Below, one piece after another: positions 3,317-63,914 of a DNA stretch of 64,000 nucleotides. The position numbers and the translations under genes were made by a program. The DNA comes from Patescibacteria group bacterium (lineage in GTDB: Bacteria; Patescibacteriota; Patescibacteriia; Magasanikbacterales; GWA2-37-8): positions 264,612 through 328,611 of the forward strand of contig JBAZNA010000001.1 in NCBI GenBank assembly GCA_041649475.1. Reading direction: 5' to 3'. Each line of letters starts with the position of its first letter. The first letter of the stretch is position 1. The notes below the pieces were generated by a model. It was not told where the DNA came from and ran no database searches. It was given only the letters and a program-made list of their open reading frames with translations.

Positions 3317-3320
3317 AATG

Positions 3321-3394
3321 TGCGCTCGGATGGACTCGGACCATCGACCCCTGCCTTATAAGGGCAGTGCTCTAACCAACTGAGCTACGAGCGC
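3321..3394 (-). tRNA. tRNA with anticodon UAU (Ile, AUA-decoding type). CCA is not encoded and the T-loop has C at position 55
   Basis: Reverse complement folds as a cloverleaf: GCGCTCG-TA-GCTC-AGTTGGTTA-GAGC-A-CTGCC-CTTATAA-GGCAG-GGGTC-GATGG-TCCGAGT-CCATC-CGAGCGC-A. Acceptor, D and anticodon stems are perfect. Confidence 0.75.
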
Positions 3395-7526: not shown

Positions 7527-8060
7527 CTACGGGAACATCGCGTCGTACATCGCGATGACCGTCTCATGGACGCTCTCGGCCACGAGACGCTCGCGATCGT
7601 AGGCCGCGACTCCCAGCTGGACGTCGTATTCGCCCGGATCGAGCTTGATGCTGGCGAGCTCCTCCGGCGTCAACTCGAAGGCGAACTGGAGTGCTGGTTG
7701 GGTGGCCAGTGAGCCCGGCTCGTTGATGTAGTGAAAAACTGCGGCCACCATCTCGAGCCGGTCGGGCGAGACCGCGAGACCAAGCTCCTCGTTCAGCTTG
7801 CGGATGGCCGCGTTCTTGGGGAGCTCATCCTTCCCCGCCCGCCCGCCGAACCACCACGCTCCGCGCCGGGGCTGGCACCGTCGCGTGGCCAGGTAGAAAA
7901 GCTTGGCCGCCTTGTTCACGCCGACGATGTCGACAACGTAGATCGGCATGAGCAACTTGATTGGCTCAAAAAGCTGGTCCGGAATCCGTTCGTACTGGCC
8001 GACACCGGCCCCTTCGTCGATCACTGTTATGACCGGCAGAAACCTAACCTCGACTGTCAT
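7527..8060 (-). CDS. NUDIX hydrolase encoded in a ~60% GC island (foreign composition)
   Basis: Nudix box GGRAGKDELPKNAAIRKLNEELGL. Strong SD AAGGAGGGGG 5 nt upstream of the ATG. GC content is sharply above the flanks. A GC-rich hairpin (7484-7515) follows the stop codon. Confidence 0.8.
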   Translation of the reverse strand: MTVEVRFLPVITVIDEGAGVGQYERIPDQLFEPIKLLMPIYVVDIVGVNKAAKLFYLATRRCQPRRGAWWFGGRAGKDELPKNAAIRKLNEELGLAVSPDRLEMVAAVFHYINEPGSLATQPALQFAFELTPEELASIKLDPGEYDVQLGVAAYDRERLVAESVHETVIAMYDAMFP

Positions 8061-18251: not shown

Positions 18252-19329
18252 CGTTTTCCGCCGGTTCAAAAGCAAATTTTTCCGGATGATAATCGGCATC
18301 GCGCAGGGCCAAAATAATTTGTTCAAGTTTGCCGTCTAAGATTGTGCCGATGTTGTTCCAGCTCCGGTGAATTCTATGATCCGTGATGCGGTCCTGGGGG
18401 TAATTGTAGGTTCTGATTTTTTCACTGCGATCGCCGCTGCCGATTTGTGAACGTCTTTTTTCAGTCAGTTCTTTTTGTTTTTTCTCCTGTTCCATGGCAA
18501 AGAGGCGGGCGCGCAGAACGGCCATGGCCTTTTCGCGGTTGGCGGTTTGGGAACGCTCATCCTGGCACTGGACAACGGTATTGGTCGGCAGATGCACGAT
18601 GCGCACGGCCGAATAAGTCGTGTTCACGCTTTGACCGCCATGGCCGCCCGCGCAAAAGGTGTCAATGCGCAAATCTTTGGGATCAATTTTTATTTCGGTT
18701 TCCTCAATCTCCGGCAATACCGCCACGGTGGCCGTTGAGGTATGTATCCGGCCGGATTTTTCGGTTTCCGGAACTCGTTGCACACGGTGTACACCCATCT
18801 CGTATTTCAAATCTTTGTAAGCGTTTTTTCCTTTTATGGAAAAAATAACTTCTTTAAAACCGCCGATGCCGATGCGGTTGGCATCAACCAGCTGGGTTTT
18901 CCATTTGTGGTCTTCGGCGTAGCGGCTATACATTCTAAAAAGATTGGCCGCAAAAAGCGCGGATTCATCTCCGCCAACCCCGGCGCGGATTTCAATGATA
19001 ACGTCTTTTTTGTCCATCGGATCTTGCGGCCGGGTTATTTCTTCAAGCTCCGCTTCAATTTGGATTTTTTTGGCCTGCAAATCGGGGAGTTCGGCCGCGG
19101 CCATCTCGCGCAAGCCATCGTCTTTTTCATCGGCTAAAATTAATTCCGTTTCGGCGATGCTTTTTTCCAATCCGTCCAGCTCGTTTATTTTTTCAGCCAC
19201 CGGTTTGTTTTCGGTATATTCTTGGGAAATCTCTTTTATTTTTTTAGGATCATTAAGCACGGCCTGGTCCTGCAAATCGGCTTCAAGTTTTTGAAATTTA
19301 TTTTTTAATTCCGCGTACTTCTTTAACAT
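18241..19329 (-). CDS. prfA: Peptide chain release factor 1
   Basis: GGQ motif ([12 protein letters not shown]) and the PxT-region pattern of RF1. prmC is downstream. Confidence 0.95.
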
Positions 19330-33403: not shown

Positions 33404-34945
33404 ATGTCAAAACAAAAAACAACCTTATTGGTCATTATGGACGGTTGGGGTATCGCCGCTCCCGGCCGCGGCAATCCGGTGACGGCAAAAAATGCCCCGA
33501 ATTATTTTTCCTGGTTGAAAAAATATCCTAACAGCAAGCTTGAAGCCAGCGGTTCGGCGGTCGGTTTGTTTAAAGATGAAGAGGGGAACAGTGAAGCCGG
33601 TCATTTAAATTTGGGGGCCGGCCGCATGGTCAAACAAGACGCTTTATATATTTCCGAAGCCATTGCCGACGGAACGTTTTTCAAAAATAATGCTTTTGAT
33701 CAGGCCCTGCATCATATCAGAAAATACGGGACGGCTATTCATGTGATGGGACTCCTGTCAAACCACAACAGCGCCCATTCCTGTCCGGAGCATTTGTACG
33801 CGCTTTTGGATTTATTCTACAGTGAAGGCATAAAACAAGTTTATCTTCATCTTTTCACGGATGGCCGCGATTCCGGCCAACATGATGCTCCCAATCATCT
33901 TAAAAAATTAGAGAAACATTTTCATGGCACAGAACAGATCGCCACTATTATGGGCAGGTTCTATGCTATGGACAGAAACAAAGATTGGGATAGAACCAAA
34001 AAGGCCTATGAGGCAATGATACTGGGCAAGGGCTGTGTGGCCGGTAGCGCCGAAGAAGCCATAGCCCAATCATATAACAAAGGCGACACAGACGAATTTG
34101 TCTGTCCGACGGTTATAGTCAAACATAATCAGCCGACGGCCACTATTAAAGATAACGACGCAATTTTCTTTTTTAATCTGCGCAGTGATCGGGCGCGGGA
34201 ACTGACCAAGGCCTTTGTCCAGCCGAATTTTAAAGAATTGAATCCGGGATCTTTTACCAGAACAAAGTATCCAAAAAATACCAGATTTGTGGCTATGGCC
34301 GATTTTGGGCCTGATTTGCCCGGCGTTCTCACCGCCTTCCCGAGCCGGGATGTTCCCAATAGTTTGGTACAGATGTTATGCCCGCGTCCGCAGCTGTATA
34401 TTGCCGAATCGGAGAAATTCGCTCATATAACCTATTTCTTTAACGGCGGTTATGCCCAGCATTTTTGTGAGGAAAATTGGGTAAAGATAGAATCGCCGGA
34501 AGTTAAAAATTATGCCGAAAAACCGGAAATGAGCGCTAAAAAAGTCGCGGATTATGTTATCGGCGCTCTTGAGTCGCATAAGTATGAATTTATTGCCGTT
34601 AATTTTGCCAATCCCGATATGGTTGGTCATACCGGAAATTTTGCGGCCGGAGAAATTGCAGTAAACACGGTTGACCGCGAGGTGGCAAGAGTGATAAAGT
34701 CCTTGGAGAAAAATGGCGGCGCCGGAATTATTACCGCCGATCACGGCAATATTGAAGGAATGATAAATTTAAAGACCGGTGAAATAGATACCGAGCACTC
34801 CACCAATCCGGTGCCGTTTATCTTGATAAACACACCGGCTCCGCGTAAATTACCGGCAGGCAAGCTCGCCAATGTGGCTCCGACGTTATTAAAACTTATG
34901 GGTATAGGTAAACCGGAAGAGATGACTGCCAAGAGTTTAATTTAA
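33404..34945 (+). CDS. gpmI: 2,3-bisphosphoglycerate-independent phosphoglycerate mutase, copy 1
   Basis: IMDGWG, GNSEAGHLNLGAGR (catalytic Ser), NPDMVGHTG and ADHGN metal-ligand motifs. Confidence 0.9.
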   Translation: MSKQKTTLLVIMDGWGIAAPGRGNPVTAKNAPNYFSWLKKYPNSKLEASGSAVGLFKDEEGNSEAGHLNLGAGRMVKQDALYISEAIADGTFFKNNAFDQALHHIRKYGTAIHVMGLLSNHNSAHSCPEHLYALLDLFYSEGIKQVYLHLFTDGRDSGQHDAPNHLKKLEKHFHGTEQIATIMGRFYAMDRNKDWDRTKKAYEAMILGKGCVAGSAEEAIAQSYNKGDTDEFVCPTVIVKHNQPTATIKDNDAIFFFNLRSDRARELTKAFVQPNFKELNPGSFTRTKYPKNTRFVAMADFGPDLPGVLTAFPSRDVPNSLVQMLCPRPQLYIAESEKFAHITYFFNGGYAQHFCEENWVKIESPEVKNYAEKPEMSAKKVADYVIGALESHKYEFIAVNFANPDMVGHTGNFAAGEIAVNTVDREVARVIKSLEKNGGAGIITADHGNIEGMINLKTGEIDTEHSTNPVPFILINTPAPRKLPAGKLANVAPTLLKLMGIGKPEEMTAKSLI

Positions 34946-34953
34946 CAATATAT

Positions 34954-36528
34954 ATGTCCTACAAACCGGTGGTATTAGTGATAATGGACGGCTGGGGGAT
35001 TGCTCCTGATAGCGCCGGCAATGCGGTCACCAGAGCGCAAACGCCCAATTTCAAAAGATTCCTAAAGGATTATCCGACCATGACCATTTATGCCGCGGGC
35101 AACGAGGTCGGTCTTTTGTTCGGCGAAATGGGCAATTCTGAAGTGGGGCATTTGAATATCGGCGCCGGCCGGGTCTATTACCAAACCTGTCCGAGAATCA
35201 ACAAAGAAATTGCCGAAGGAAATTTCTTTAAGAACGAGGCGTTTTTAAACGCGATTAACAAAGCCAAAAAAAATAAGACAAAATTGCACTTGATTGGCCT
35301 GGTCAGTTCCGGAAATGTGCATTCAAGCAGTGATCATTTATATGCCTTGCTTGATCTCTGCAAGCGGCAAAAATTTCAAAATGTTTTTATTCATGTTATT
35401 TTAGACGGCCGGGATTGCTTGTATAATTCCGGCAAGGACTGCGTGTCTGCATTGATCGGCAAGATGAAGGAATATAAAGTCGGCACCATTGCTTCTCTTT
35501 CCGGAAGGTATTACGCGATGGACAGAGATAACCGCTGGGACAGATGCGAAAAGGCGTATAAGGCCATGGCCGAAGGCGTGTCAGAGCGCAGCGGTGATGA
35601 TCCGATTAAAATGATTGAGGAGGCCTACAGTCAAAATAATTTTGATGAAGAATTTATCCCCGGAGTTATTACCAAAAATGGCCAGCCGGTGACCACAATA
35701 GACGAAGGCGACGCGGCTATATTTTTCAATTTTAGACCTGACCGGGCCAGAGAACTGACCCAGGCCTTTGTTTTGCCCAGTTTTAATAAGTTTGCCAAAA
35801 AACCTATCAAAGATTTATATTTTGTGACCATGTCCGAGTATGAAAAAGATCTGCCGGCTGTGGCGGCTTATACGCCGGTGGTGGTGCACAATTGTTTGGC
35901 CGAAGTGATAAGCAAAGCGGGGTTAAAGCAATTTCATATTGCCGAAACCGAAAAATACGCGCACGTAACCTTTTTTTTAAACGGCACCATTGAAGAGCCG
36001 TTTCCGGGCGAAGACAGATTTTTGGTTCCGTCGCCGAAAGTGGCCTCTTATGATTTAAAACCGGAGATGTCGGCCGCCGAGGTTTTAAAGGAATTAGGCA
36101 AAGCCATTGACAGCGAAAAATATGATTTTATTATTGTTAATTTCGCCAATCCGGATATGGTGGGCCATACCGGCGTTTTGAAGGCAGGTATCAGATCCTG
36201 CGAAGTGACGGATAAGTGCATCGGCGATTTGGTTGACCATGTGTTGTCTCATAGCGGCGTGGCTGTTATCACGGCCGATCATGGCAATGTTGAAGAAATG
36301 ATAAATTTGCAAACCGGTGAAATAGATAAAGAACACTCAACCAATCCGGTGCCGCTCATTATTGTGGGCAAAGATTTTTTGGGTTCTGCCGGGCCGGCCG
36401 GCGATGCTCCGGAAGGGGATTTGAGTTTAACTCATCCGGTCGGCGTTTTGGCTGATGTGGCTCCGACCATTTTGAAATTAATGGGAGTGGAGCAGCCGCC
36501 GGAAATGACCGGCCAGCCGCTTATTTAA
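34954..36528 (+). CDS. gpmI: 2,3-bisphosphoglycerate-independent phosphoglycerate mutase, copy 2 (tandem paralog)
   Basis: IMDGWG, GNSEVGHLNIGAGR, NPDMVGHTG and ADHGN are all intact; sequence is divergent from copy 1. Confidence 0.9.
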   Translation: MSYKPVVLVIMDGWGIAPDSAGNAVTRAQTPNFKRFLKDYPTMTIYAAGNEVGLLFGEMGNSEVGHLNIGAGRVYYQTCPRINKEIAEGNFFKNEAFLNAINKAKKNKTKLHLIGLVSSGNVHSSSDHLYALLDLCKRQKFQNVFIHVILDGRDCLYNSGKDCVSALIGKMKEYKVGTIASLSGRYYAMDRDNRWDRCEKAYKAMAEGVSERSGDDPIKMIEEAYSQNNFDEEFIPGVITKNGQPVTTIDEGDAAIFFNFRPDRARELTQAFVLPSFNKFAKKPIKDLYFVTMSEYEKDLPAVAAYTPVVVHNCLAEVISKAGLKQFHIAETEKYAHVTFFLNGTIEEPFPGEDRFLVPSPKVASYDLKPEMSAAEVLKELGKAIDSEKYDFIIVNFANPDMVGHTGVLKAGIRSCEVTDKCIGDLVDHVLSHSGVAVITADHGNVEEMINLQTGEIDKEHSTNPVPLIIVGKDFLGSAGPAGDAPEGDLSLTHPVGVLADVAPTILKLMGVEQPPEMTGQPLI

Positions 36529-39021: not shown

Positions 39022-40716
39022 ATGTGTAAATTGAAAGAGGAAGTGGCAAATTTGTTGCGCGACATAGGCGTGGAAGGCGAAATTGATATTATCACTCCAC
39101 CTGATCCGGAAATGGGGGATTTGGGTTTTGCCACTTTCGGTTTGGCCAAACAGCAGAAAAAAAATCCTTATGATGTAACACTTGAGCTTAAGTCAGCAAT
39201 TGAGGAGAAGGGAATGCCTAATGGTATTGAAGGTATTGCGGCGGTAGGCCCGTATTTGAATTTTTATTTTAAAACCGGCGGTTTGGCCAAATGTGTTATT
39301 GAAGAAATAAAAGTTCGGGGCAAAGATTTTGGCAAATCACAGACAAAACAAAAAGAAAAAGTGATGATTGAATATTCCCAGCCGAATACGCATAAGGAAT
39401 TTCATATTGGCCACTTAAGGAATGTATGTATTGGTTCATCTTTGGTCAATATCTTTCGCGCCAGCGGCTATAAAATTTTGAGCGCGAATTATGTCGGTGA
39501 TGTGGGCGCGCATGTGGCCAAGTGCCTTTGGTATATAAAAAAGTTTAACAAAGAAATTCCAAAAGAGAATAAAGGAAAATGGCTGGGCCAGATGTATACC
39601 GAAGCCAGTCGGGTGTTGGAGGATAAACCGGAATTGAAACCGGAGGTGCAAGAAGTGCAGGCCAAACTGGAGAGCGGCGATAAGGACTGGGTAAAATTTT
39701 GGCAAGAAACCAAAAAATGGAGTTTGGAAGAGTTTAAAAGAATTTATGATTTATTGGGAGTAAATTTTGATGTTTGGTTTTATGAAAGCGAAGTGGAAAA
39801 ACCGGGCAAAGACATGGTTGATGAGTTACTAAAAAAAGGCGTGGCCCAAACCGGGGAAGGCGGGGCGGTTATTGTTGATTTAAATAAATACGGGCTTGAT
39901 ATATTTTTGATTTTAAAATCAGATGGGACGTCACTCTACGCTACCAAAGATCTGGCCTTGGCCAAAAAGAAATTTCATGAATATAAAATTGATAAAAACA
40001 TCATGGTGGTTGACAGCCGGCAGGAATTTTATTTCAAGCAATTATTCCAAACTTTGGCATTGGCCGGCTGGAAAAAAGATCTACAATATATCGGTTATGA
40101 ATTTGTGAAGCTGCCGGAAGGCGCCATGGCCAGCCGTACCGGCAATGTAGTTTTGTTTGACGATCTATATAATGATGTTTTTGCCACGGAAGTAGAAGAG
40201 GTAAAAACACGCCACGCGGATTGGAGCGCGAAAAATATTGAAGAGGCAGCGCGCGTACTAGCTTTGGGCGCTTTGAAATTTGACATGCTTAAGCATCCAG
40301 TTGATAAGGTTATCATTTTTAACAAAAAAGAGGCCCTGGCTTTTGAGGGTTATACCGGCCCGTATGTTTTATATGTTGTGGCTAGGATAAATTCACTCTT
40401 AAAAAAATCTAAAAATAAAATAAAGAAGGTTGATTTTGAGTTGTTAAAAGAATCGGAAGAAAAACAGCTTTTGTTGTTGATGTCTCAATTTGAAGAAATA
40501 ATTATAAAATCTTTAGAAAATTATAATCCTTCTGTGATAATAAAGTATTGTTTTGATTTGGCAAAACAATACAATGACTTCTATACCCAGCATAGCGTGC
40601 TAAGCGCCCAGACCCCGGAACTAATTAATGCGCGTTTGGCCATATCTGCCTGCGTAAAGCAGGTTTTGGAAAACGCACTGGGACTGCTGGGCATTGACAC
40701 AGTGCCCGAAATGTAG
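39022..40716 (+). CDS. argS: Arginyl-tRNA synthetase
   Basis: HIGHLRN motif, Arg-anticodon-binding C-terminal domain, and the N-terminal add-on domain. Confidence 0.95.
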   Translation: MCKLKEEVANLLRDIGVEGEIDIITPPDPEMGDLGFATFGLAKQQKKNPYDVTLELKSAIEEKGMPNGIEGIAAVGPYLNFYFKTGGLAKCVIEEIKVRGKDFGKSQTKQKEKVMIEYSQPNTHKEFHIGHLRNVCIGSSLVNIFRASGYKILSANYVGDVGAHVAKCLWYIKKFNKEIPKENKGKWLGQMYTEASRVLEDKPELKPEVQEVQAKLESGDKDWVKFWQETKKWSLEEFKRIYDLLGVNFDVWFYESEVEKPGKDMVDELLKKGVAQTGEGGAVIVDLNKYGLDIFLILKSDGTSLYATKDLALAKKKFHEYKIDKNIMVVDSRQEFYFKQLFQTLALAGWKKDLQYIGYEFVKLPEGAMASRTGNVVLFDDLYNDVFATEVEEVKTRHADWSAKNIEEAARVLALGALKFDMLKHPVDKVIIFNKKEALAFEGYTGPYVLYVVARINSLLKKSKNKIKKVDFELLKESEEKQLLLLMSQFEEIIIKSLENYNPSVIIKYCFDLAKQYNDFYTQHSVLSAQTPELINARLAISACVKQVLENALGLLGIDTVPEM

Positions 40717-40751
40717 TATAATCAATTGTTCGTTCTTTGATAAATTTATTT

Positions 40752-40804
40752 GAAATTGCCCGATTTTTGTATACAAAATTTGTAGATAAAAACAGGGCAA
40801 TTTC
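40752..40804 (+). promoter_or_regulatory. Nested palindrome immediately upstream of the high-GC methyltransferase RBS: 10-bp IR GAAATTGCCC / GGGCAATTTC enclosing the palindrome TTTTGTATACAAAA
   Basis: Read directly; function unknown (operator, hairpin or insertion boundary). Confidence 0.4.
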
Positions 40805-40831
40805 GCCCAAAAACCTTGAAGGAGGCACGAC

Positions 40832-41740
40832 ATGTCCAATTCTCGCAGTGGTCCAGCTCTTAGCGAACAGGTGGAGGCGTTGGGGAGGTTGCCGGTGGAT
40901 TTCGCGGAGGTGGACTGTCTGCCTCCCGAGATCAAGAAGCTCATCGCTGATCCAGTCACGTGGAGTGACCCCCGGGTGCGGGGGTACACCACCACGAAAT
41001 CCACGATCGCCCACATCCTCGCCGAGAACCCGGCTTCGGATCGGATGCTCCAGATTGTCTACCCGGACACCAACGGTTCGCCCTTGGTCAACGGTTTGGA
41101 CAGGTTCTTGAGCCGGTCGCTCTCGGGCCAGGCGCTTCGTGATCGTCTGGACTTCTGTTCGGACTGGCTGGCGGACAACTTCGCCCGTCGCGGCAAGCGC
41201 ATCATTGACCTTGGCGGCGGCTCCGGTTCGTACGCGTTCAGGGTCTTTCGTGTCCACGGTTTGATTCCCGCAAAGTTTGTGTGGGACATTTTGGACCTTG
41301 ACCTTGAGGCCCTCAATGTCGCCCGGATGCGGGCGCATGACACCGGCCTGGACGGCGTCATCCAGGTCCGCCAGGGTAACTTCAAGCACGACAGCGCCAT
41401 TCTGCCCGAGAAGGCCGACTACGCTGTTCTCATTGGAGTTCTCTGCGGCATGGACAAGGACACTGCTAGGGACGTGCTCTGCCGTGCCAAGGATCACCTC
41501 AAGCCCGGCGGTGAGATGCTCGCCGCGACCCTCCTGCAGAAGGCCTTTGATGAAGACCCTCGCACCTTCCGCATCCTCTGCAACGTCGGCGGCTGGCAAC
41601 TCCGCCCCAAGACGCCGGAGCAGGTTGCTGAAATCTTCCAGCTTGCCGGTTGGGAGATCATCGGCGATATGATGTCCGAGCGTCCCGACACCAAAGTCGG
41701 CGGCGGTCAGTACGCCATCGTGCACGCCCGCGCCCTCTAG
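40832..41740 (+). CDS. Class I SAM-dependent methyltransferase encoded in a ~62% GC island (foreign composition)
   Basis: Motif I IIDLGGGSGSYA. Strong SD AAGGAGGCACGACATG. Own GC-rich terminator at 41767-41807. No DPPY/NPPY motif, so more likely a small-molecule or RNA methyltransferase than a DNA methyltransferase. Confidence 0.75.
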   Translation: MSNSRSGPALSEQVEALGRLPVDFAEVDCLPPEIKKLIADPVTWSDPRVRGYTTTKSTIAHILAENPASDRMLQIVYPDTNGSPLVNGLDRFLSRSLSGQALRDRLDFCSDWLADNFARRGKRIIDLGGGSGSYAFRVFRVHGLIPAKFVWDILDLDLEALNVARMRAHDTGLDGVIQVRQGNFKHDSAILPEKADYAVLIGVLCGMDKDTARDVLCRAKDHLKPGGEMLAATLLQKAFDEDPRTFRILCNVGGWQLRPKTPEQVAEIFQLAGWEIIGDMMSERPDTKVGGGQYAIVHARAL

Positions 41741-41766
41741 CGCGGTCCTGCCGAAACACCCTCATG

Positions 41767-41807
41767 CCCGTGCCTGTTCTCTCCGAGAGCAGTCACGGGT
41801 TTTTTTT
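41767..41807 (+). terminator. GC-rich intrinsic terminator of the methyltransferase island (CCCGTG...CACGGG then T8)
   Basis: Read directly. Confidence 0.6.
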
Positions 41808-41859
41808 ATTTTATTTTTATGGTAAAATATATCAAACGCAATCGGAATCATCTTCAACT

Positions 41860-43464
41860 ATGGAGGTCTCATACACATATTTTGCCTTTTCAGCTGTCTT
41901 TAATGCTTTTGTCAGCACTTTTTTGGGTTTCTTGATTTTGTTTAAAGACAGAAAAAACAAGATATACAGAAATTTGGCCTGGTTCAGTTTTGGCGTGGCC
42001 CTATGGTCTTACGCGTATATCCTGTGGCCATTGGCGCCTAACCGCGAACTGACTTTGTTGTCTTTCCAACTCCTTCACATCCCGGCTTGCTTTGTGTCTA
42101 TCTTCTATCTTCATTTCGTCGTTAACTGGCTGGGCATATATAAAAAACAAAGATTGATAATTTGGCTGGGATACATCATTTCCTTCTTTTTTGCCTGTAC
42201 TACTTTTACGACGGATTTTATCGCCGGCATGGTGCCTAAGTTCGGTATGCGCTATTGGGCGGTGCCTGGGCCATTGTATGATTATTATTTGGTAATGTTT
42301 TTTGGCTTCACGCTTTACGCCACTTATCTTTTGATTAGGCACTACTCTAAAGAAACCGAAATCAAAAAGAAACAAATTGCCCTAATGCTGGTCGGCATCG
42401 TTTTATCTTTTATCGGCGGCTCAACCAATTATTATCTTTGGTATGAGGTGAATATTCCACCTTACGGAAACATCCTGGCTTCCTCGTTTGTTATTTTTAC
42501 CGTTTATGCCATTATCCGTTATAAACTTCTTAACATAAAACTCATTGCCACTGAAGGCGCGCTTCTGATAATGAACACTTTATTGTTGTTCAGGTTTTTG
42601 ACTTCAAGGGATACGACTGAATTGATTGTCAATCTTTTAATCATGATTGGTTCTTTGGTCCTTTCTTTTATCTTGATTTCAAGCGTAAAAAAAGAAATAA
42701 AACGCCGTGAGGAAGTAACTGTTTTGGCGCGTTCGCTTGAAGCCGCCAACGCCCAACTGAAAGAATTGGATCAGCAAAAAACCGAATTTTTATCCATCGC
42801 CTCCCACCAACTGCGGACGCCGCTTTCCATCGCCAAAGGGTATATAGAATTGATTAAGGATGGGGCCTATGGAAAGGCGGGGCCGGAAATGGTTAAAGTT
42901 TTGGATAAAATGGATACCAGCAATGAACACTTGGTAAAACTGGTTGACGAGTTTTTAGACATCACTCATATTGAACAGGGGCAGATAAAATATGATTTCG
43001 CGGAAAAAAATATCTGCGAGATCACCGATGATGTTATCCATGAGCTGGCGGAAAAAGCAACACAGCAAGGATTGAAAATAAGCTGGGCTTGTCCCCGGGA
43101 AAGAAAAAATATTTTTTGTGATGGCGAAAAAATTCGTCACGTGGTATTAAATTTCATTGATAATGCCATTAAGTATAGCGACAAGGGTGTGGTGGCGATT
43201 ACTTTAAAGAATGAAAATAAGGGAGTGGCCTTCAGAGTAAAAGATAACGGATTGGGTTTTGATAAAGCGGATGAAGCCGGATTTTTTCAAAAATTTTATC
43301 GCGGGAATAATGTTAAGGGCGTAAGTATTAACGGTACCGGGCTTGGTCTTTTTGTTTGCCGTAAATTTATAGAAGCCCATAAGGGCAAGGTTTGGGCCCA
43401 TAGCGACGGCTTGGGCAAGGGCAGTGAGTTTGGTTTTTGGATACCGTCAACCCAAAATTCATGA
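41860..43464 (+). CDS. Sensor histidine kinase with a multi-pass N-terminal membrane sensor domain (HisKA + HATPase_c); start set to the Met after the island terminator
   Basis: H-box SIASHQLRTPL, N/G1/G2 boxes (NFIDNAIKYS, DNGLGF, GTGLGL), 6-7 TM segments at the N-terminus. No response regulator is adjacent. The ORF track start at 41650 overlaps the island and has implausible composition. Confidence 0.8.
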   Translation: MEVSYTYFAFSAVFNAFVSTFLGFLILFKDRKNKIYRNLAWFSFGVALWSYAYILWPLAPNRELTLLSFQLLHIPACFVSIFYLHFVVNWLGIYKKQRLIIWLGYIISFFFACTTFTTDFIAGMVPKFGMRYWAVPGPLYDYYLVMFFGFTLYATYLLIRHYSKETEIKKKQIALMLVGIVLSFIGGSTNYYLWYEVNIPPYGNILASSFVIFTVYAIIRYKLLNIKLIATEGALLIMNTLLLFRFLTSRDTTELIVNLLIMIGSLVLSFILISSVKKEIKRREEVTVLARSLEAANAQLKELDQQKTEFLSIASHQLRTPLSIAKGYIELIKDGAYGKAGPEMVKVLDKMDTSNEHLVKLVDEFLDITHIEQGQIKYDFAEKNICEITDDVIHELAEKATQQGLKISWACPRERKNIFCDGEKIRHVVLNFIDNAIKYSDKGVVAITLKNENKGVAFRVKDNGLGFDKADEAGFFQKFYRGNNVKGVSINGTGLGLFVCRKFIEAHKGKVWAHSDGLGKGSEFGFWIPSTQNS

Positions 43465-44802: not shown

Positions 44803-45495
44803 ATGAAAAGAGGAGGAAGGAAACCCTTGGGAAGGGTTAAAATTAAGTGGTCTTCTAATTTTGCGTATGCAATTGGGCTTATTGCGACTGATGGATGCTT
44901 ATCAAAAGATGGTAGGCATGTAGTTTTTGTTTCAAAGGATTTAGAGCAGATAGAAAATTATCAGAGAACTTTAGGTATTTCATGTTCCATAGGGCGGAAA
45001 AGCCGGGGAGGCGAAAGTGAAAGAAAATATTTTGTTCTTCAGTTCGGGGATGTCCTTTTCTATAAATTTTTATTATCAGTAGGTCTTACTCCTGCCAAAT
45101 CGAAAATTATTGGTGAGCTTGAAATACCAGATGAATATTTTTTCGATTTTCTGCGTGGACATTTGGATGGAGACGGGACGTTTTATTCGTATTGGGATCC
45201 GCGTTGGCATTCCAGTTTTATGTTTTATACTGTTTTTCTTTCAGCGAGCAAGAAACATATTGATTGGATATCCTCTAAATTATACCAATTTTTGGAAATC
45301 AAGGGGCACATAGTGAATAATAACGACTTAATTTACAGTTTGAAATTTGCCAAAAATGAATCTTTAAAATTATTGCCAAAATTGTATTATTCTGATAAAA
45401 TAATTTATCTGTCCAGGAAATATAATAAGATACAAAAAGCTCTGCATATTGAAAACAAGCACAATAATGAGTCAAAAAATGCCCGGGTGCTGTAA
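44803..45495 (+). mobile_element. Free-standing double-motif LAGLIDADG homing endonuclease gene; its stop codon lies inside the downstream tRNA-Leu
   Basis: Two LAGLIDADG motifs, YAIGLIATDGCLSKDG and FLRGHLDGDGTF, about 100 aa apart. No intron or intein context is visible. Confidence 0.7.
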
Positions 45496-45564
45496 CCGGT
45501 AGCCAGCTTGGTTTGAGGTACCAAGGTCCTAACGGACGTGGAGGTTCAATTCCTCTCCCGGGCA
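45481..45564 (+). tRNA. tRNA-Leu (anticodon GAG), class II with long variable arm; CCA not encoded
   Basis: GCCCGGG-TG-CTG-TAACCGGTAGC-CAG-C-TTGGT-TTGAGGT-ACCAA-GGTCCTAACGGACGT-GGAGG-TTCAATT-CCTCT-CCCGGGC-A. The variable arm closely resembles that of E. coli tRNA-Leu. Confidence 0.85.
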
Positions 45565-45613
45565 CAATTTACTTTGCTAAAAAGTGAACTTCATAGTAAA
45601 ATATAGGGGATAT

Positions 45614-61771: not shown

Positions 61772-61868
61772 TAATTTGTAAGATAATTTTTATAAAAAAA
61801 TATGCGCTCCGTCTTTGTCTCGTGTGAGATTTGGACGAAGCGCGTGTCGTGCCTCCTTGTGGCTACTG

Positions 61869-62450
61869 CTAGACCCTGTGAGCGTAGGCCTTGATGGCTT
61901 TGGGGATGATCCCCGTGCGGTGCGGCTCCACGGTGTTTTCGGGCAACTGGTCCACCGGGTACCAGTCGTGCCTTTCGTCTTCGCGCGGAGAACCGTCGCA
62001 GTGGACGAGGTAGATCCTGGAGACGCCGGAGCCGCGGATCTCGCCTTTCTTCCAGTCCACGTATTCGCCGATGTACCGGAAGGAGATGATCGGAGTGCCA
62101 AACTCCCGCTCAAGGCGGTTGGCCACATCACGTTCGGTCTCGCCCGGCCGGAAGGCCGACCCGGGCGCATGCCACTCGAGCGGGTAGACCTCATCCGCCG
62201 CGCGCTTGCGCAGATAGATTTCGATCTTGGTGGTGGAGGGGTTGACCCGGAGTGCCACACCCTCAAAGAACATATTCCACGAGAGCCGGGCGATCGCGTT
62301 GTAGAGGTTGGTGCCGTAGGGCTTGTACGGATCGAGTCCGTTGAGCACATCCGCGGCGAATTCCCTGTATTCCTTGCTATCTGGGCCGAGACCCGCAAGC
62401 AGTTTGAGGGCTTCCTCAAGGATGCGCTTTGCATAACCCTTGTCCAACAT
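61869..62450 (-). CDS. Hypothetical protein in a ~60% GC island; possible divergent Nudix-fold protein
   Basis: Strong SD GGAGGA upstream and GC far above the flanks. The segment APGSAFRPGETERDVANRLEREFG loosely resembles a Nudix box (G.E......A.REL.EE.G) but is one residue short; low confidence in the family call. Confidence 0.55.
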   Translation of the reverse strand: MLDKGYAKRILEEALKLLAGLGPDSKEYREFAADVLNGLDPYKPYGTNLYNAIARLSWNMFFEGVALRVNPSTTKIEIYLRKRAADEVYPLEWHAPGSAFRPGETERDVANRLEREFGTPIISFRYIGEYVDWKKGEIRGSGVSRIYLVHCDGSPREDERHDWYPVDQLPENTVEPHRTGIIPKAIKAYAHRV

Positions 62451-63596: not shown

Positions 63597-63914
63597 TTTG
63601 AGTGCGCTAATGATTAACCTCAAACACCGCAAACAAAGCACCTCATACAATTCGTTAATCTTCTAAGTCCCGAAAGGGATACTGGAAAGAGAAAAGAGCA
63701 ACTCCAAATTGGGTTTCTCTTTTTTCTTTCTCGCAAAGGCCGCCTAGAGGTGGCACAAGAAAGAAAGTGAACCTTGACAACACAAACGTGACAAAGACCA
63801 TATTAAAGTCTATTCAAACCAAACGGTTAGGCGCGATTCGTCGCGCCGTACCAAACAGTAACAGTAATAAATCCAAACAAACTCGTTCATATGAACGAGA
63901 TCAACTCTTTTTTA

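What the first reader, a model, noticed from the sequence alone, without database searches (positions are those of the whole stretch)
40752..41812. High-GC single-gene island encoding a SAM methyltransferase, inserted after argS
GC content jumps from ~40% to ~62% for one gene. The gene carries a strong SD (AAGGAGGCACGACATG), its own GC-rich terminator, and a nested palindrome at the left boundary (GAAATTGCCC...TTTTGTATACAAAA...GGGCAATTTC). The native-looking sensor kinase gene resumes immediately after. The minus-strand overlapping ORF 40625-41725 is a typical high-GC artefact. The picture fits a recent horizontal acquisition or a cassette insertion from a high-GC donor.
Basis: seen in the sequence. 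Interest (0 to 1): 0.6.

Follow-up and report, generated by a model that had tools for sequence, protein, structure and literature searches.

The report
Persistently GC-rich gene slot beside kinase
A methyltransferase gene that looks freshly imported because of its high GC content is actually an old, conserved neighbour of a sensor kinase in these tiny bacteria, and it sits in a slot where almost any single gene stays GC-rich, so something still unidentified is actively maintaining that composition.

Summary
In detail: ORF 40832-41740(+) has 61.6% GC and GC3 0.78, against 44% for the window. The "recent island" reading fails. Orthologues at 35-72% identity lie directly upstream of the same HisKA_7TM kinase in about 24 Patescibacteria loci, and 21 of 25 distinct loci are GC-richer than their flanks. 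Four-fold sites are near saturation, yet GC3 stays high. Passive decay from one import would need an ancestral GC3 above 1, so the GC is maintained.

The gene occupies a variable slot. In sister lineages five other single-gene occupants (four or five families) sit in the same frame, often after a MazF-type toxin module, and all are GC-rich. The "boundary palindrome" is a conserved 5' leader hairpin, and the antisense ORF is an artefact.

Slot transcripts are more folded than synonymous shuffles (mean z -2.8, versus about -0.7 in 83 controls). I favour RNA-level selection for AU-poor, structured transcripts. A link to MazF is only suggestive: no motif is avoided, and no toxin homologue was found on the window's genome.

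The cause of GC maintenance remains unresolved.

The parts
40694..40722 (+). Promoter of the methyltransferase unit: TTGACA-17-TATAAT, a 12/12 match to consensus, overlapping the argS stop codon (TAG 40714-40716).
   Evidence: Near-consensus promoters sit at the equivalent place in L029 (10/12) and L003 (11/12 with TG). Function is inferred from consensus only.
40751..40805 (+). Long hairpin in the 5' leader. It has 22 pairs, AT-rich arms and an ACAAAAUUUGU-like apex.
   Evidence: Comparable hairpins of 22-31 bp with different arm sequences occur in L029, L030, L037, L003, L032, L033 and L042, and upstream of other cargo genes in L095 and L100. One is present in L003, where the upstream gene is divergent.
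40819..40825 (+). Shine-Dalgarno sequence AAGGAGG.
   Evidence: Read directly from the sequence. The exact 14-mer AAGGAGGCACGACA (40819-40832) recurs at 61845-61858(-); the 13-mer search is and the 14-mer alignment.
40832..41740 (+). CDS of a 302-aa class I SAM-dependent methyltransferase. GC 0.62, GC3 0.78, A3 0.03. This is the GC-rich cargo of the slot.
41766..41807 (+). GC-rich terminator hairpin (41766-41800) followed by a T8 run.
   Evidence: -27.7 kcal/mol, z = -4.8. Orthologues carry one or two long GC-rich 3' hairpins followed by a T-run.
41818..41828 (+). Extended -10 promoter element TATGGTAAAAT of the downstream kinase gene.
   Evidence: Conserved as TATG(G/C/A/T)TA(A/T)AAT in nearly all loci, whatever the cargo gene. 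Function is inferred.
41860..43464 (+). HisKA_7TM sensor histidine kinase, the constant partner of the slot. Its composition is host-like (GC 0.41).
   Evidence: PF16927, PF00512, PF02518. Adjacency is shown.
7527..8060 (-). Second GC-rich single-gene unit: a NUDIX hydrolase of 177 aa. GC 0.63, GC3 0.82, A3 0.08. It has a TTGACA -35 element, a strong SD and a GC-rich 3' hairpin.
   Evidence: It is an orphan, matching only itself among 5.8 billion protein clusters.
61869..62450 (-). Third GC-rich single-gene unit: a NUDIX-like protein of 193 aa. GC 0.61, GC3 0.80, A3 0.08. It lies antisense within the rpsP-KH-trmD region.
   Evidence: The Pfam match is weak (E = 0.006, below the gathering score).
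61823..61858 (-). Copy of the methyltransferase gene's RBS and first codons (AAGGAGGCACGACA ... GTCCAAATCTCACA) in the 3' region of NUDIX_B.
   Evidence: An exact second copy of the 13-mer is expected about 0.002 times by chance (my arithmetic). Its meaning is unresolved.

Best explanation
The gene is the resident cargo of a conserved single-gene slot immediately upstream of a 7TM sensor histidine kinase in a clade of Patescibacteria.

It is an autonomous transcription unit. It has a consensus promoter, a leader of about 100 nt with a 22-bp hairpin, a strong SD, a GC-rich CDS and a GC-rich hairpin terminator. It encodes a class I SAM methyltransferase of the small-molecule type.

Its high GC is not a trace of recent import. 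It is a maintained state, shared by orthologues that co-diverged with the kinase past synonymous saturation, and by other single genes occupying the same slot in sister lineages.

The most likely maintaining force is selection at the RNA level for an AU-poor, stably folded transcript. One possible reason is survival of AU-directed, single-strand-specific endoribonucleases, such as the MazF-type toxin encoded directly upstream in many related loci.

What is shown: the synteny, the conserved anomaly, the saturation, the variable slot and the excess folding.
What is inferred: selection as the cause, the RNase rationale, and the functional link between a lipid-type small-molecule enzyme and the kinase.

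Confidence by tier: about 0.85 for an old, conserved slot with maintained GC; about 0.45 for RNA-level selection; about 0.2 for the MazF link.
For: Synteny and conserved anomaly:
- In every Patescibacteria-type locus with downstream sequence, the methyltransferase lies 80-190 bp upstream of a HisKA_7TM kinase orthologue.
- 21 of 25 distinct loci exceed their 3-kb flanks by 0.085 or more in GC, up to +0.29.

The excess is not explained by amino acids alone:
- Expected GC under host codon usage is 0.51, observed 0.62. GC3 is 0.78 against an expected 0.51.
- Every two-fold codon family is inverted relative to the host.

The GC is maintained:
- Third-base identity at four-fold sites of conserved residues is near random expectation (W-L030 0.40 vs 0.34), as it is for the kinase, yet most site pairs stay G/C on both sides.
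- Passive amelioration from one import would need an ancestral GC3 of 0.95-1.99.
- Methyltransferase and kinase distances correlate (Mantel r = 0.65, p = 2e-4) and the trees share their main clades.

The anomaly belongs to the slot:
- Five other single-gene occupants (KASIII-like, a 379-aa protein, CER1-like_C, a 447-aa NAD-binding protein that is a distant homologue of the CER1-like one, and a 362-aa methyltransferase) have GC 0.56-0.60, GC3 0.61-0.74 and A3 0.08-0.15. Their flanks are mostly 0.31-0.41 GC, with the range running from 0.27 to 0.48 for bactofilin.
- They share the leader motif and hairpin and the kinase promoter.
- GC elevation is confined to about -30 nt through stop +60 nt, with spacers of 0.2-0.3 GC on both sides.

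Excess folding:
- Against synonymous shuffles, the methyltransferase family has mean z = -2.84 (22 of 22 negative). The other cargoes range from -2.9 to -7.3.
- Controls: adjacent kinases -0.79 (paired Wilcoxon p = 7.6e-6), 26 GC-matched genes from GC-rich genomes -0.60, and 39 window genes -0.73 with SD 0.86.

Toxin association and precedent:
- An RHH/small ORF/PemK-MazF trio (PF02452, E = 8e-14 to 6e-9) lies directly upstream of the cargo in 8 methyltransferase loci and in all six independently sampled toxin contexts.
- MazF-type toxins cut only single-stranded RNA, and sites within secondary structure are protected (PMC5408214).
Against: - The window gene's own folding excess is modest. Its z of -2.1 to -2.6 falls in the lowest 3% of window genes. 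The two NUDIX genes give only -2.0 and -1.35.
- There is no conserved fold in the CDS. The RNAalifold covariation term is +5.2, which is unfavourable.
- No k-mer is avoided beyond codon composition, and ACA is enriched in the loci of the window's clade that lack the toxin (W, L029, L003).
- No single codon family or tRNA stands out.
- The window has no toxin homologue in its 64 kb. None of 106 toxin homologues lies on a 963,177-bp contig. Yet the window's GC3 is among the highest.
- The amino-acid composition is also GC-shifted (R/(R+K) 0.65 vs 0.29). A mutational or conversion bias would explain this at least as naturally as selection.
- The structured 5' leader is itself AT-rich.
- Some tree incongruence exists. 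L005 has a methyltransferase near the window's clade but a long-type kinase, and it shows no GC3 excess.
- Selection strong enough to hold hundreds of synonymous sites is demanding.
Confidence: 0.5

Rival explanations
1. Recurrent replacement. The slot is an integration or recombination hot spot that is repeatedly refilled with genes from GC-rich donors, for example the partner organisms of these putative episymbionts. Each occupant is then young enough to remain GC-rich.
For: - Cargo identity varies between lineages within an otherwise constant frame.
- Nucleotide homology between L100 and L102 ends exactly at the MazF stop codon. It resumes only about 840 nt into the kinase gene.
- The neighbouring argS is also anomalously divergent (58% in L029, where tyrS is 87%; 39% vs 88%).
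- Distant homologues of three cargo families co-occur in a cluster in a non-CPR bacterium. A FadL/TodX outer-membrane gene accompanies the methyltransferase in one subclade and in a diderm locus.
- GC-rich genes within one genome share similar GC3.
- A fragment of the methyltransferase 5' end lies next to NUDIX_B.
Against: - Within the methyltransferase family the gene co-diverges with the kinase. Its synonymous saturation matches that of the kinase.
- No homologue in a GC-rich context exceeds about 42% identity in searches of 5.8 billion clusters and 1.84 billion representatives. There are no viral relatives.
- The non-CPR homologues are less GC-rich (GC3 0.56-0.59) than the window gene (0.78).
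- Promoter, leader and SD are host-type and conserved across different cargoes.
Confidence: 0.2
2. A local neutral bias. GC-biased gene conversion, or another mutational process confined to these units, drives both synonymous and non-synonymous sites toward G/C.
For: - GC1, GC2 and the R/K ratio are shifted as well as GC3.
- The 3' UTR is also GC-rich.
- The slot is evidently recombinogenic.
- The codon shift is general, not codon-specific.
Against: - GC falls from about 0.7 to 0.1-0.3 within 30-60 nt at both ends. The adjacent toxin and kinase genes, where recombination tracts would have to end, are host-like.
- The leader inside the same unit is AT-rich.
- Excess folding over synonymous shuffles is not predicted by a composition-only process.
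- The four-gene operon occupying the same slot in L104 is not GC-rich.
Confidence: 0.12
3. Codon-based translational control. The gene uses G/C-ending codons so that its translation depends on, or is independent of, particular tRNAs. One example would be continued translation after a toxin inactivates tRNAs that read A-ending codons.
For: - Codon preference is inverted in every two-fold family (AAG 0.85 vs 0.24, TAC 1.0 vs 0.24). A3 is 0.03-0.15 in all cargoes.
- There is a precedent. MazF-mt9 cleaves tRNA-Lys(UUU) and shifts synthesis toward AAA-poor proteins (PMC6620280).
- A MazF-type toxin is adjacent in many related loci.
Against: - No codon family stands out. T-ending codons are avoided as strongly as A-ending ones (TTT -2.7, TAT -2.3, AAA -2.2 log-odds).
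- Non-coding 3' hairpins and amino-acid composition are also GC-shifted.
- The window genome appears to lack the toxin.
- Highly expressed genes in the window (enolase, GAPDH, rpsB, tsf) have GC3 of only 0.40-0.52.
Confidence: 0.1
4. One reading: a recent single-gene horizontal acquisition or cassette insertion from a high-GC donor after argS. An assembly chimera is the related alternative.
For: - Composition is atypical at all three codon positions, with a codon usage typical of a 60-65% GC organism.
- Boundaries are sharp.
Against: - The position is orthologous in about 24 loci, with 35-72% identity and saturated synonymous sites.
- There is no donor, no target-site duplication and no mobility gene within 10 kb either side.
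- The junctions are identical in independent assemblies.
Confidence: 0.04

Closest known systems
Compositional genomic islands and the amelioration model (Lawrence and Ochman 1997, as cited in PMC12455944)
   Same: A sharply bounded gene with atypical GC, GC3 and codon usage inside an AT-richer genome. The cargo families probably have a foreign origin in the distant past.
   Different: The gene is conserved at an orthologous position and co-diverges with its neighbour. It shows no amelioration despite synonymous saturation. There are no mobility genes or target-site duplications. The anomaly follows the slot, not one gene family.
Integron gene cassettes in sedentary chromosomal integrons, which are often accompanied by toxin-antitoxin cassettes
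   Same: A single-ORF variable cargo bracketed by hairpin-forming palindromes whose structure is conserved while the sequence is not. A toxin-antitoxin module lies adjacent.
   Different: There is no integrase within 10 kb on either side. The cargo has its own consensus promoter. There is one fixed slot, not an array. The hairpins lack the GTTRRRY/RYYYAAC core sites. The cargo is inherited vertically over long periods.
Toxin-escape gene expression: ACA-less transcripts translated in MazF-expressing cells, and MazF-mt9/tRNA-Lys codon-dependent proteome reprogramming (PMC5408214, PMC6620280, PMC7033543)
   Same: A PemK/MazF toxin lies directly upstream of the cargo in many related loci. The cargo transcripts are AU-poor, strongly folded and use the opposite codon set to the rest of the genome.
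   Different: The toxin's specificity is unknown. No avoided motif or single codon was found. The window genome seems to lack the toxin. Nothing has been tested experimentally.
Class I SAM-dependent small-molecule methyltransferases: Pfam Methyltransf_23/31/25, the catalytic domain of O-methyltransferase family 2 (DnrK, MmcR, PhzM), and PDB 3ocj
   Same: The Rossmann fold, the DLGGGSG motif I, Pfam scores above gathering, and Foldseek probability 1.0.
   Different: Sequence identity to any solved structure is only 13-25%. The N-terminal 110 residues form a helical cap of their own, without the family-2 dimerisation domain. The substrate is unknown. The core family is essentially restricted to Patescibacteria, at about 17 clusters at 50% identity.

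Membership tests
Class I SAM-dependent methyltransferase | Seven-stranded Rossmann-like fold | tested here: met
   The AlphaFold2 model has pLDDT 95.9 and pTM 0.92. Foldseek against the PDB gives probability 1.0 to DnrK, MmcR, PhzM, TleD and 3ocj.
Class I SAM-dependent methyltransferase | Glycine-rich motif I (D/ExGxGxG) and family HMM scores above the curated thresholds | tested here: met
   D126-L-G128-G-G130-S-G is present, with D126 and G128 invariant in 62 sequences. PF13489 scores 39.4 bits against a cutoff of 27, PF13847 33.6 against 27, and PF00891 34 against 22.3.
Class I SAM-dependent methyltransferase | SAM binding and methyl transfer to a defined substrate | not testable with these tools
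   Needs biochemistry. Context (FadL/TodX, KASIII-like and reductase-like alternatives, a DAGK-type lipid kinase) only suggests a hydrophobic small molecule.
O-methyltransferase family 2 (PF00891; DnrK-like) | N-terminal dimerisation domain (PF08100) preceding the catalytic domain | tested here: not met
   There is no PF08100 hit at E up to 1. Structural matches cover mainly the Rossmann domain, with TM 0.44-0.54.
Methyltransf_20 (PF12147) / PDB 3ocj-like | Match to the PF12147 model | tested here: not met
   The window protein has no PF12147 hit at E up to 1. Only distant members carry weak precomputed hits. 3ocj is the best full-length structural match, but TM is only 0.63.
Recently acquired genomic island | Atypical base composition and codon usage | tested here: met
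Recently acquired genomic island | Absent from the orthologous position in related genomes (patchy presence) | tested here: not met
   The gene is present upstream of the same kinase in about 24 loci, down to 35% identity.
Recently acquired genomic island | Mobility hallmarks at the borders: integrase or transposase, tRNA target, direct repeats | tested here: not met
   None within 10 kb on either side by Pfam context. No flanking direct repeats. The nearest tRNA is 3.7 kb away.
Recently acquired genomic island | Close homologue in a compositionally matching donor | tested here: not met
   The closest relatives (72% identity or less) are all in AT-rich Patescibacteria contexts. Non-CPR homologues are 42% identical or less and are less GC-rich.
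Integron gene cassette | IntI integrase and attI nearby; promoterless ORF followed by an attC with conserved core sites | tested here: not met
   There is no recombinase within 10 kb on either side. The ORF has its own 12/12 consensus promoter. The hairpin ends (GAAATTGCCC/GGGCAATTTC and GCCCGTG/CACGGGT) lack GTTRRRY, as read from the sequence.
Toxin-escape (MazF-resistant) transcript | A cognate MazF-type toxin encoded in the same genome or locus | tested here: inconclusive
   Met in 8 orthologous methyltransferase loci and 6 other-cargo loci. Not met in the window: none in 64 kb, and no toxin homologue lies on a 963,177-bp contig.
Toxin-escape (MazF-resistant) transcript | Depletion of the toxin's recognition motif | tested here: inconclusive
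   The motif is unknown. No 3- or 4-mer is depleted beyond |z| of about 4 against synonymous shuffles. ACA is enriched in the W/L029/L003 group.
Toxin-escape (MazF-resistant) transcript | Potential sites sequestered in secondary structure, or an AU-poor transcript | tested here: met
   Cargo mean z is -2.8, against about -0.7 in 83 control genes. A3 is 0.03-0.15. This is a correlation only.

The most novel reading that the evidence does not exclude
These Patescibacteria may keep a small class of stand-alone genes in a hard-wired 'RNase-proof' state: GC-rich, AU-poor, heavily folded and capped by hairpins. The class would include whichever lipid-type or small-molecule enzyme occupies the slot beside the 7TM kinase. 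Their transcripts would then survive, or be the only ones translated, when an AU-directed single-strand endoribonuclease such as the neighbouring MazF-type toxin is active. On this reading the composition is a regulatory code, not a mark of ancestry.
Probability: 0.2. Interest if true: 0.85.

Novelty: new variant of a known kind. Interest (0 to 1): 0.6.

Why it matters
First, this is a clean counter-example to the routine inference that atypical GC means recent horizontal transfer. A gene can stay compositionally foreign through complete synonymous turnover, so composition-based island callers would misdate it.

Second, it exposes a previously undescribed locus architecture in Patescibacteria. 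A variable single-enzyme slot, often preceded by a MazEF-like module, is coupled to a fast-evolving 7TM sensor kinase. This gives a concrete entry point to signalling in organisms that cannot yet be cultured alone.

Third, if the maintained GC reflects selection for RNase-resistant or selectively translated transcripts, it would be a natural analogue of engineered toxin-proof expression. It would also be a new way in which toxin-antitoxin systems shape genomes. All three points can be tested with existing metagenomes, metatranscriptomes and simple in vitro cleavage assays.

Tried and rejected
- Antisense gene: the 366-aa minus-strand ORF is in exact antisense register and is interrupted in most orthologues.
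- Ordinary translational selection: housekeeping and highly expressed genes in the window have GC3 of 0.40-0.52. That ORF list wrongly hid two GC-rich NUDIX genes behind longer spurious ORFs. This was corrected.
- A discrete conserved RNA in the CDS: the RNAalifold covariation term is unfavourable. Rfam has no match in the unit.
- ACA or other motif avoidance: nothing convincing.
- Escape from a single-tRNA toxin: the codon shift is general.
- Phage or viral reservoir: none.
- Recombination signal from strain pairs: the only close pairs are 99.9% identical and uninformative.
- Known defence system: PADLOC gives only generic domain hits.
- Target-site duplications: none.
- Palindrome as a repeated element: there is no such family in the window.
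- Outgroup taxonomy through cluster names: no names are held.
- Donor search for NUDIX_A: it is an orphan.
- FadL-like gene in the window's clade: absent there. It occurs only in one subclade and in one non-CPR locus.
- Literature search for a described precedent for a persistently GC-rich gene in an AT-rich genome: none found.
- The afdb50 fold library was unavailable.
Full report
**1.
ORF 40832-41740(+) encodes 302 aa. Its GC is 61.6% and its GC3 is 0.78. The window mean is 44.0%, with an SD of 3.7% for 900-bp windows, so this is the highest value in the window. The flanks are 32-44%. The following features are all present as described:
- the SD AAGGAGG at 40819-40825;
- the palindrome GAAATTGCCC...GGGCAATTTC at 40752-40804;
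- a GC-rich terminator hairpin at 41766-41800 followed by T8;
- a HisKA_7TM kinase at 41860-43464.

**2. It is not a chimera.**
The exact protein lies on a 963,177-bp contig that NCBI labels a Patescibacteria group MAG. An ENA MEGAHIT contig of 90 kb and a Logan contig of 11 kb are 100% identical to the window across both junctions. About 25 further contigs from other samples show the same kind of junction.

**3. The protein is a class I SAM methyltransferase.**
- It scores above the Pfam gathering thresholds for Methyltransf_23, Methyltransf_31, Methyltransf_25 and the O-methyltransferase catalytic domain. Motif I is DLGGGSG.
- The AlphaFold2 model is confident (pLDDT 95.9). Its closest solved folds are small-molecule O-, C- and N-methyltransferases such as DnrK, MmcR, PhzM and TleD. 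The best full-length match is 3ocj, with TM 0.63.
- It lacks the family-2 dimerisation domain and does not match PF12147.
- The core family is small, at about 17 representative clusters scoring above 200 bits. It then grades into a wider set of methyltransferases of about 300 aa.

**4. Both the position and the GC anomaly are conserved.**
- Homologues of 35-72% identity lie 80-190 bp upstream of an orthologous HisKA_7TM kinase in every Patescibacteria-type locus with downstream sequence. Bactofilin and a DAGK-type lipid kinase usually follow.
- The upstream neighbour varies: argS, a flavokinase/EamA gene, a FadL-like gene or a toxin module.
- In 21 of 25 distinct loci the gene is GC-richer than its 3-kb flanks by 0.085-0.29. 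Examples are L030 at 0.63 vs 0.35 and L037 at 0.65 vs 0.37.
- Among the Patescibacteria loci, the Uhrbacteria-type locus L005 and the short contig L040 show almost no excess (+0.04 and +0.03).
- Two loci without the kinase, L044 and L047, also show little or none (-0.06 and +0.04) and lie in non-CPR contexts. L044 has a FadL/TodX outer-membrane protein and LolD. L047 has LysR, TctABC and CoA-transferases.

**5. The excess is only partly due to amino-acid composition.**
- Given the protein sequence and host codon usage, the expected GC is 0.51 and the expected GC3 is 0.51. The observed values are 0.62 and 0.78. In L030 GC3 is 0.81 against an expected 0.33.
- Every two-fold codon family is inverted relative to the host: AAG 0.85 vs 0.24, TAC 1.00 vs 0.24, TTC 0.73 vs 0.19. 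R/(R+K) is 0.65 vs 0.29, and third-position A is 0.03.

**6. The GC-richness is maintained, not left over.**
- At four-fold sites of conserved residues, third-base identity between orthologues barely exceeds the composition-based expectation. W-L030 gives 0.40 vs 0.34 and W-L029 gives 0.50 vs 0.36. The kinase behaves the same way. Even so, most methyltransferase site pairs remain G/C on both sides.
- I converted these figures into retained fractions. Passive decay toward host GC3 from one ancestral import would require an ancestral GC3 of 0.95-1.99, which is impossible in 13 of 14 cases.
- Methyltransferase and kinase distance matrices correlate (Mantel r = 0.65, p = 2e-4), and neighbour-joining trees share the main clades. 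A few incongruences remain, such as L005.
- No viral relative exists. No homologue in a GC-rich context exceeds about 42% identity.

**7. The unit is an autonomous transcription unit.**
- A 12/12 consensus promoter, TTGACA-17-TATAAT, lies at 40694-40722 and overlaps the argS stop. L003 has an 11/12 promoter with TG and L029 a 10/12 promoter at the equivalent distance.
- The palindrome therefore lies in a transcribed leader of about 100 nt. It folds as a 22-bp hairpin.
- Orthologues carry 22-31-bp hairpins at the same place, with different arm sequences and a similar apex. Leader z-scores run from -3.5 to -9.3.
- The hairpin is present in L003, where the upstream gene is divergent. It is also present upstream of other cargo genes in L095 and L100. 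It therefore belongs to the slot and is not an insertion scar or an argS terminator.
- There are no flanking direct repeats and no mobility genes within 10 kb either side.
- GC elevation runs only from about -30 nt to about +60 nt past the stop. The spacers on either side have 0.2-0.3 GC.
- Downstream, one or two long GC-rich hairpins and a T-run are followed by a conserved extended -10 element (TATGGTAAAAT) for the kinase.
- The 366-aa antisense ORF is an exact-register artefact and is interrupted in most orthologues.

**8. The gene occupies a variable slot.**
- In eight methyltransferase loci (L011, L030, L032, L033, L037, L038, L042, L048), AT-rich small ORFs lie directly upstream. They are an RHH-like protein, an unknown protein of about 88 aa, and a PemK/MazF toxin (PF02452, E = 8e-14 to 6e-9). 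L032 lacks the 88-aa ORF, and L037 is cut off by the contig end and shows only the toxin.
- Six toxin homologues chosen without reference to the methyltransferase all sit in the same frame...tyrS-argS-...-RHH-MazF-X-HisKA_7TM kinase, with valS upstream and bactofilin-DAGK downstream wherever the locus extends far enough. X differs between them:
  - a KASIII-like protein;
  - a 379-aa protein;
  - a CER1-like_C reductase-like protein;
  - a 447-aa NAD-binding protein, which is a distant homologue of the CER1-like one (24% identity);
  - a different methyltransferase of 362 aa;
  - in L104, a four-gene operon.
- All five single-gene occupants are GC-rich. GC is 0.56-0.60, GC3 0.61-0.74 and A3 0.08-0.15. 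Their flanks are mostly 0.31-0.41 GC, with a full range of 0.27 to 0.48 (bactofilin).
- The translationally coupled operon in L104 is not GC-rich, at 0.39-0.43.
- Between L100 and L102, nucleotide homology stops exactly at the MazF stop codon and resumes about 840 nt into the kinase gene. Protein identities are tyrS 88%, DAGK 91%, bactofilin 80% and MazF 74%, but kinase 57%, argS 39% and cargo 24%.
- Three cargo families have homologues in one regulated cluster of the non-CPR bacterium in L047/L108. A FadL/TodX gene accompanies the methyltransferase in one subclade.
- From this I infer, without proof, that the cargo enzymes act on a common type of hydrophobic small molecule related to what the kinase senses.

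**9. The transcripts are unusually folded.**
- I compared the mean MFE of 150-nt windows with 40 synonymous-codon shuffles per gene. All 22 methyltransferase sequences tested were more folded than their shuffles (mean z = -2.84). The window gene gave -2.1 to -2.6 in repeated runs.
- The other cargoes gave -2.9 to -7.3.
- Controls gave much weaker values:
  - adjacent kinases -0.79 (paired Wilcoxon p = 7.6e-6);
  - 26 GC-matched genes from GC-rich genomes -0.60, minimum -2.2;
  - 39 window genes -0.73, SD 0.86, minimum -2.2.
- RNAalifold finds no conserved fold in the CDS, so the structure is generic and lineage-specific.

**10. The MazF idea was tested and remains only suggestive.**
- Published work shows that these toxins cut only single-stranded RNA, and that sites inside secondary structure are protected. 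ACA-less mRNAs are translated in MazF-expressing cells. MazF-mt9 reprograms the proteome through AAA codons (PMC5408214, PMC6620280).
- Here, no k-mer is depleted beyond what codon composition predicts.
- The codon shift is a general avoidance of AU-rich triplets, with no single family standing out.
- The window has no toxin homologue. None of 106 toxin homologues lies on a contig of the window genome's length.
- PADLOC gives only generic domain hits.

**11. The window holds two more units of the same kind.**
- They are NUDIX genes at 7527-8060(-) and 61869-62450(-). GC is 0.63 and 0.61, GC3 0.82 and 0.80, and A3 0.08 in both.
- Each has a TTGACA -35 element, a strong SD and GC-rich sequence after its stop codon. 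NUDIX_A has a clear GC-rich 3' hairpin followed by a second hairpin and T-run, the same architecture as the methyltransferase orthologues.
- NUDIX_A has no homologue other than itself.
- An exact copy of AAGGAGGCACGACA, followed by a near-copy of the methyltransferase's first codons, lies just after NUDIX_B's stop.
- Sporadic GC-rich genes also occur in other loci. GC3 of such genes is similar within a genome and differs between genomes.
It suggests a genome-wide class of genes.

**12. Verdict.**
- Shown: an old, conserved, variable cargo slot beside a 7TM kinase. Its single-gene occupants stay GC-rich and strongly folded through complete synonymous turnover.
- Inferred as most likely (about 0.45): RNA-level selection for AU-poor, stable transcripts.
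- Still open: recurrent replacement from unsampled GC-rich donors (about 0.2), a local conversion or mutational bias (about 0.12), and codon-based translational control (about 0.1).
- Effectively excluded: recent single-gene import or an assembly chimera.

**13. Limits.**
- Trees are neighbour-joining on short proteins.
- Host codon usage comes from a few flanking genes per locus.
- Taxon labels are those of the MAG depositors.
- Promoters and terminators are consensus predictions.
- Only 64 kb of the window genome was available to me.
- No expression or polymorphism data were available.

Noticed in passing
window 7527-8060(-) and 61869-62450(-): Two further GC-rich single-gene units, both NUDIX-type, with the same composition as the methyltransferase (GC3 0.80-0.82). 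Each has a TTGACA -35 element, a strong SD and GC-rich 3' sequence. NUDIX_B lies antisense inside the rpsP-KH-trmD region. NUDIX_A has no homologue in 5.8 billion protein clusters.
   Followed up: partly
window 61823-61858(-): An exact copy of the methyltransferase RBS 14-mer AAGGAGGCACGACA, followed by a near-copy of its first codons, sits just after the NUDIX_B stop. This hints at past recombination between GC-rich units.
   Followed up: partly
window 39022-40716(+); L029, L100 vs L102: argS is far more divergent between close relatives than its neighbours. It is 58% identical between the window and L029, where tyrS is 87%. It is 39% between L100 and L102, where tyrS is 88%. This suggests replacement by a xenologue or two argS types next to the variable slot.
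   Followed up: no
window 44803-45495(+) and 45481-45565(+): A free-standing AT-rich LAGLIDADG-type ORF (GC 0.34) abuts a tRNA-Leu(GAG) gene. It is absent from the otherwise syntenic P0005 locus, where DAGK is followed directly by the 81-aa gene. It is probably a homing-endonuclease insertion.
   Followed up: no
L006/L090 6826-7986, L007 6584-7768, L008 183-1352, L046 6097-7290(-), L093 3141-4304: FadL/TodX-family outer-membrane beta-barrel genes (PF03349) sit next to the methyltransferase in contigs labelled Patescibacteria. This is unexpected for bacteria thought to lack an outer membrane. These genes are also mildly GC-elevated.
   Followed up: partly
L104 6409-11311 (also L105): In one lineage the slot holds a four-gene operon (ELFV-dehydrogenase-like, a 509-aa unknown, ThiF and nitroreductase-like) that is reminiscent of an azole-peptide (TOMM-type) modification cluster. 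It is translationally coupled to both MazF and the kinase and is not GC-rich.
   Followed up: no
window 33404-34945(+) and 34954-36528(+): Two tandem paralogues of cofactor-independent phosphoglycerate mutase (Metalloenzyme/iPGM_N) that share an 89-nt stretch at 86.5% identity.
   Followed up: no
L033 1082-1345, L030 2100-2366, L042 6535-6831: A conserved protein of about 88 aa with no family match lies between the RHH-like gene and the MazF-type toxin, making a three-gene toxin module.
   Followed up: no
window 3320-3394(-): A tRNA-Ile with anticodon UAU, which would read AUA directly. The SSU rRNA gene starts at 63908.
   Followed up: no
window 18447-19294(+): A stretch of about 850 nt containing only ORFs with non-coding-like codon-position GC (GC2 0.54-0.63) and no Rfam match at the gathering threshold. 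It may be an unrecognised RNA gene or a degraded gene.
   Followed up: no
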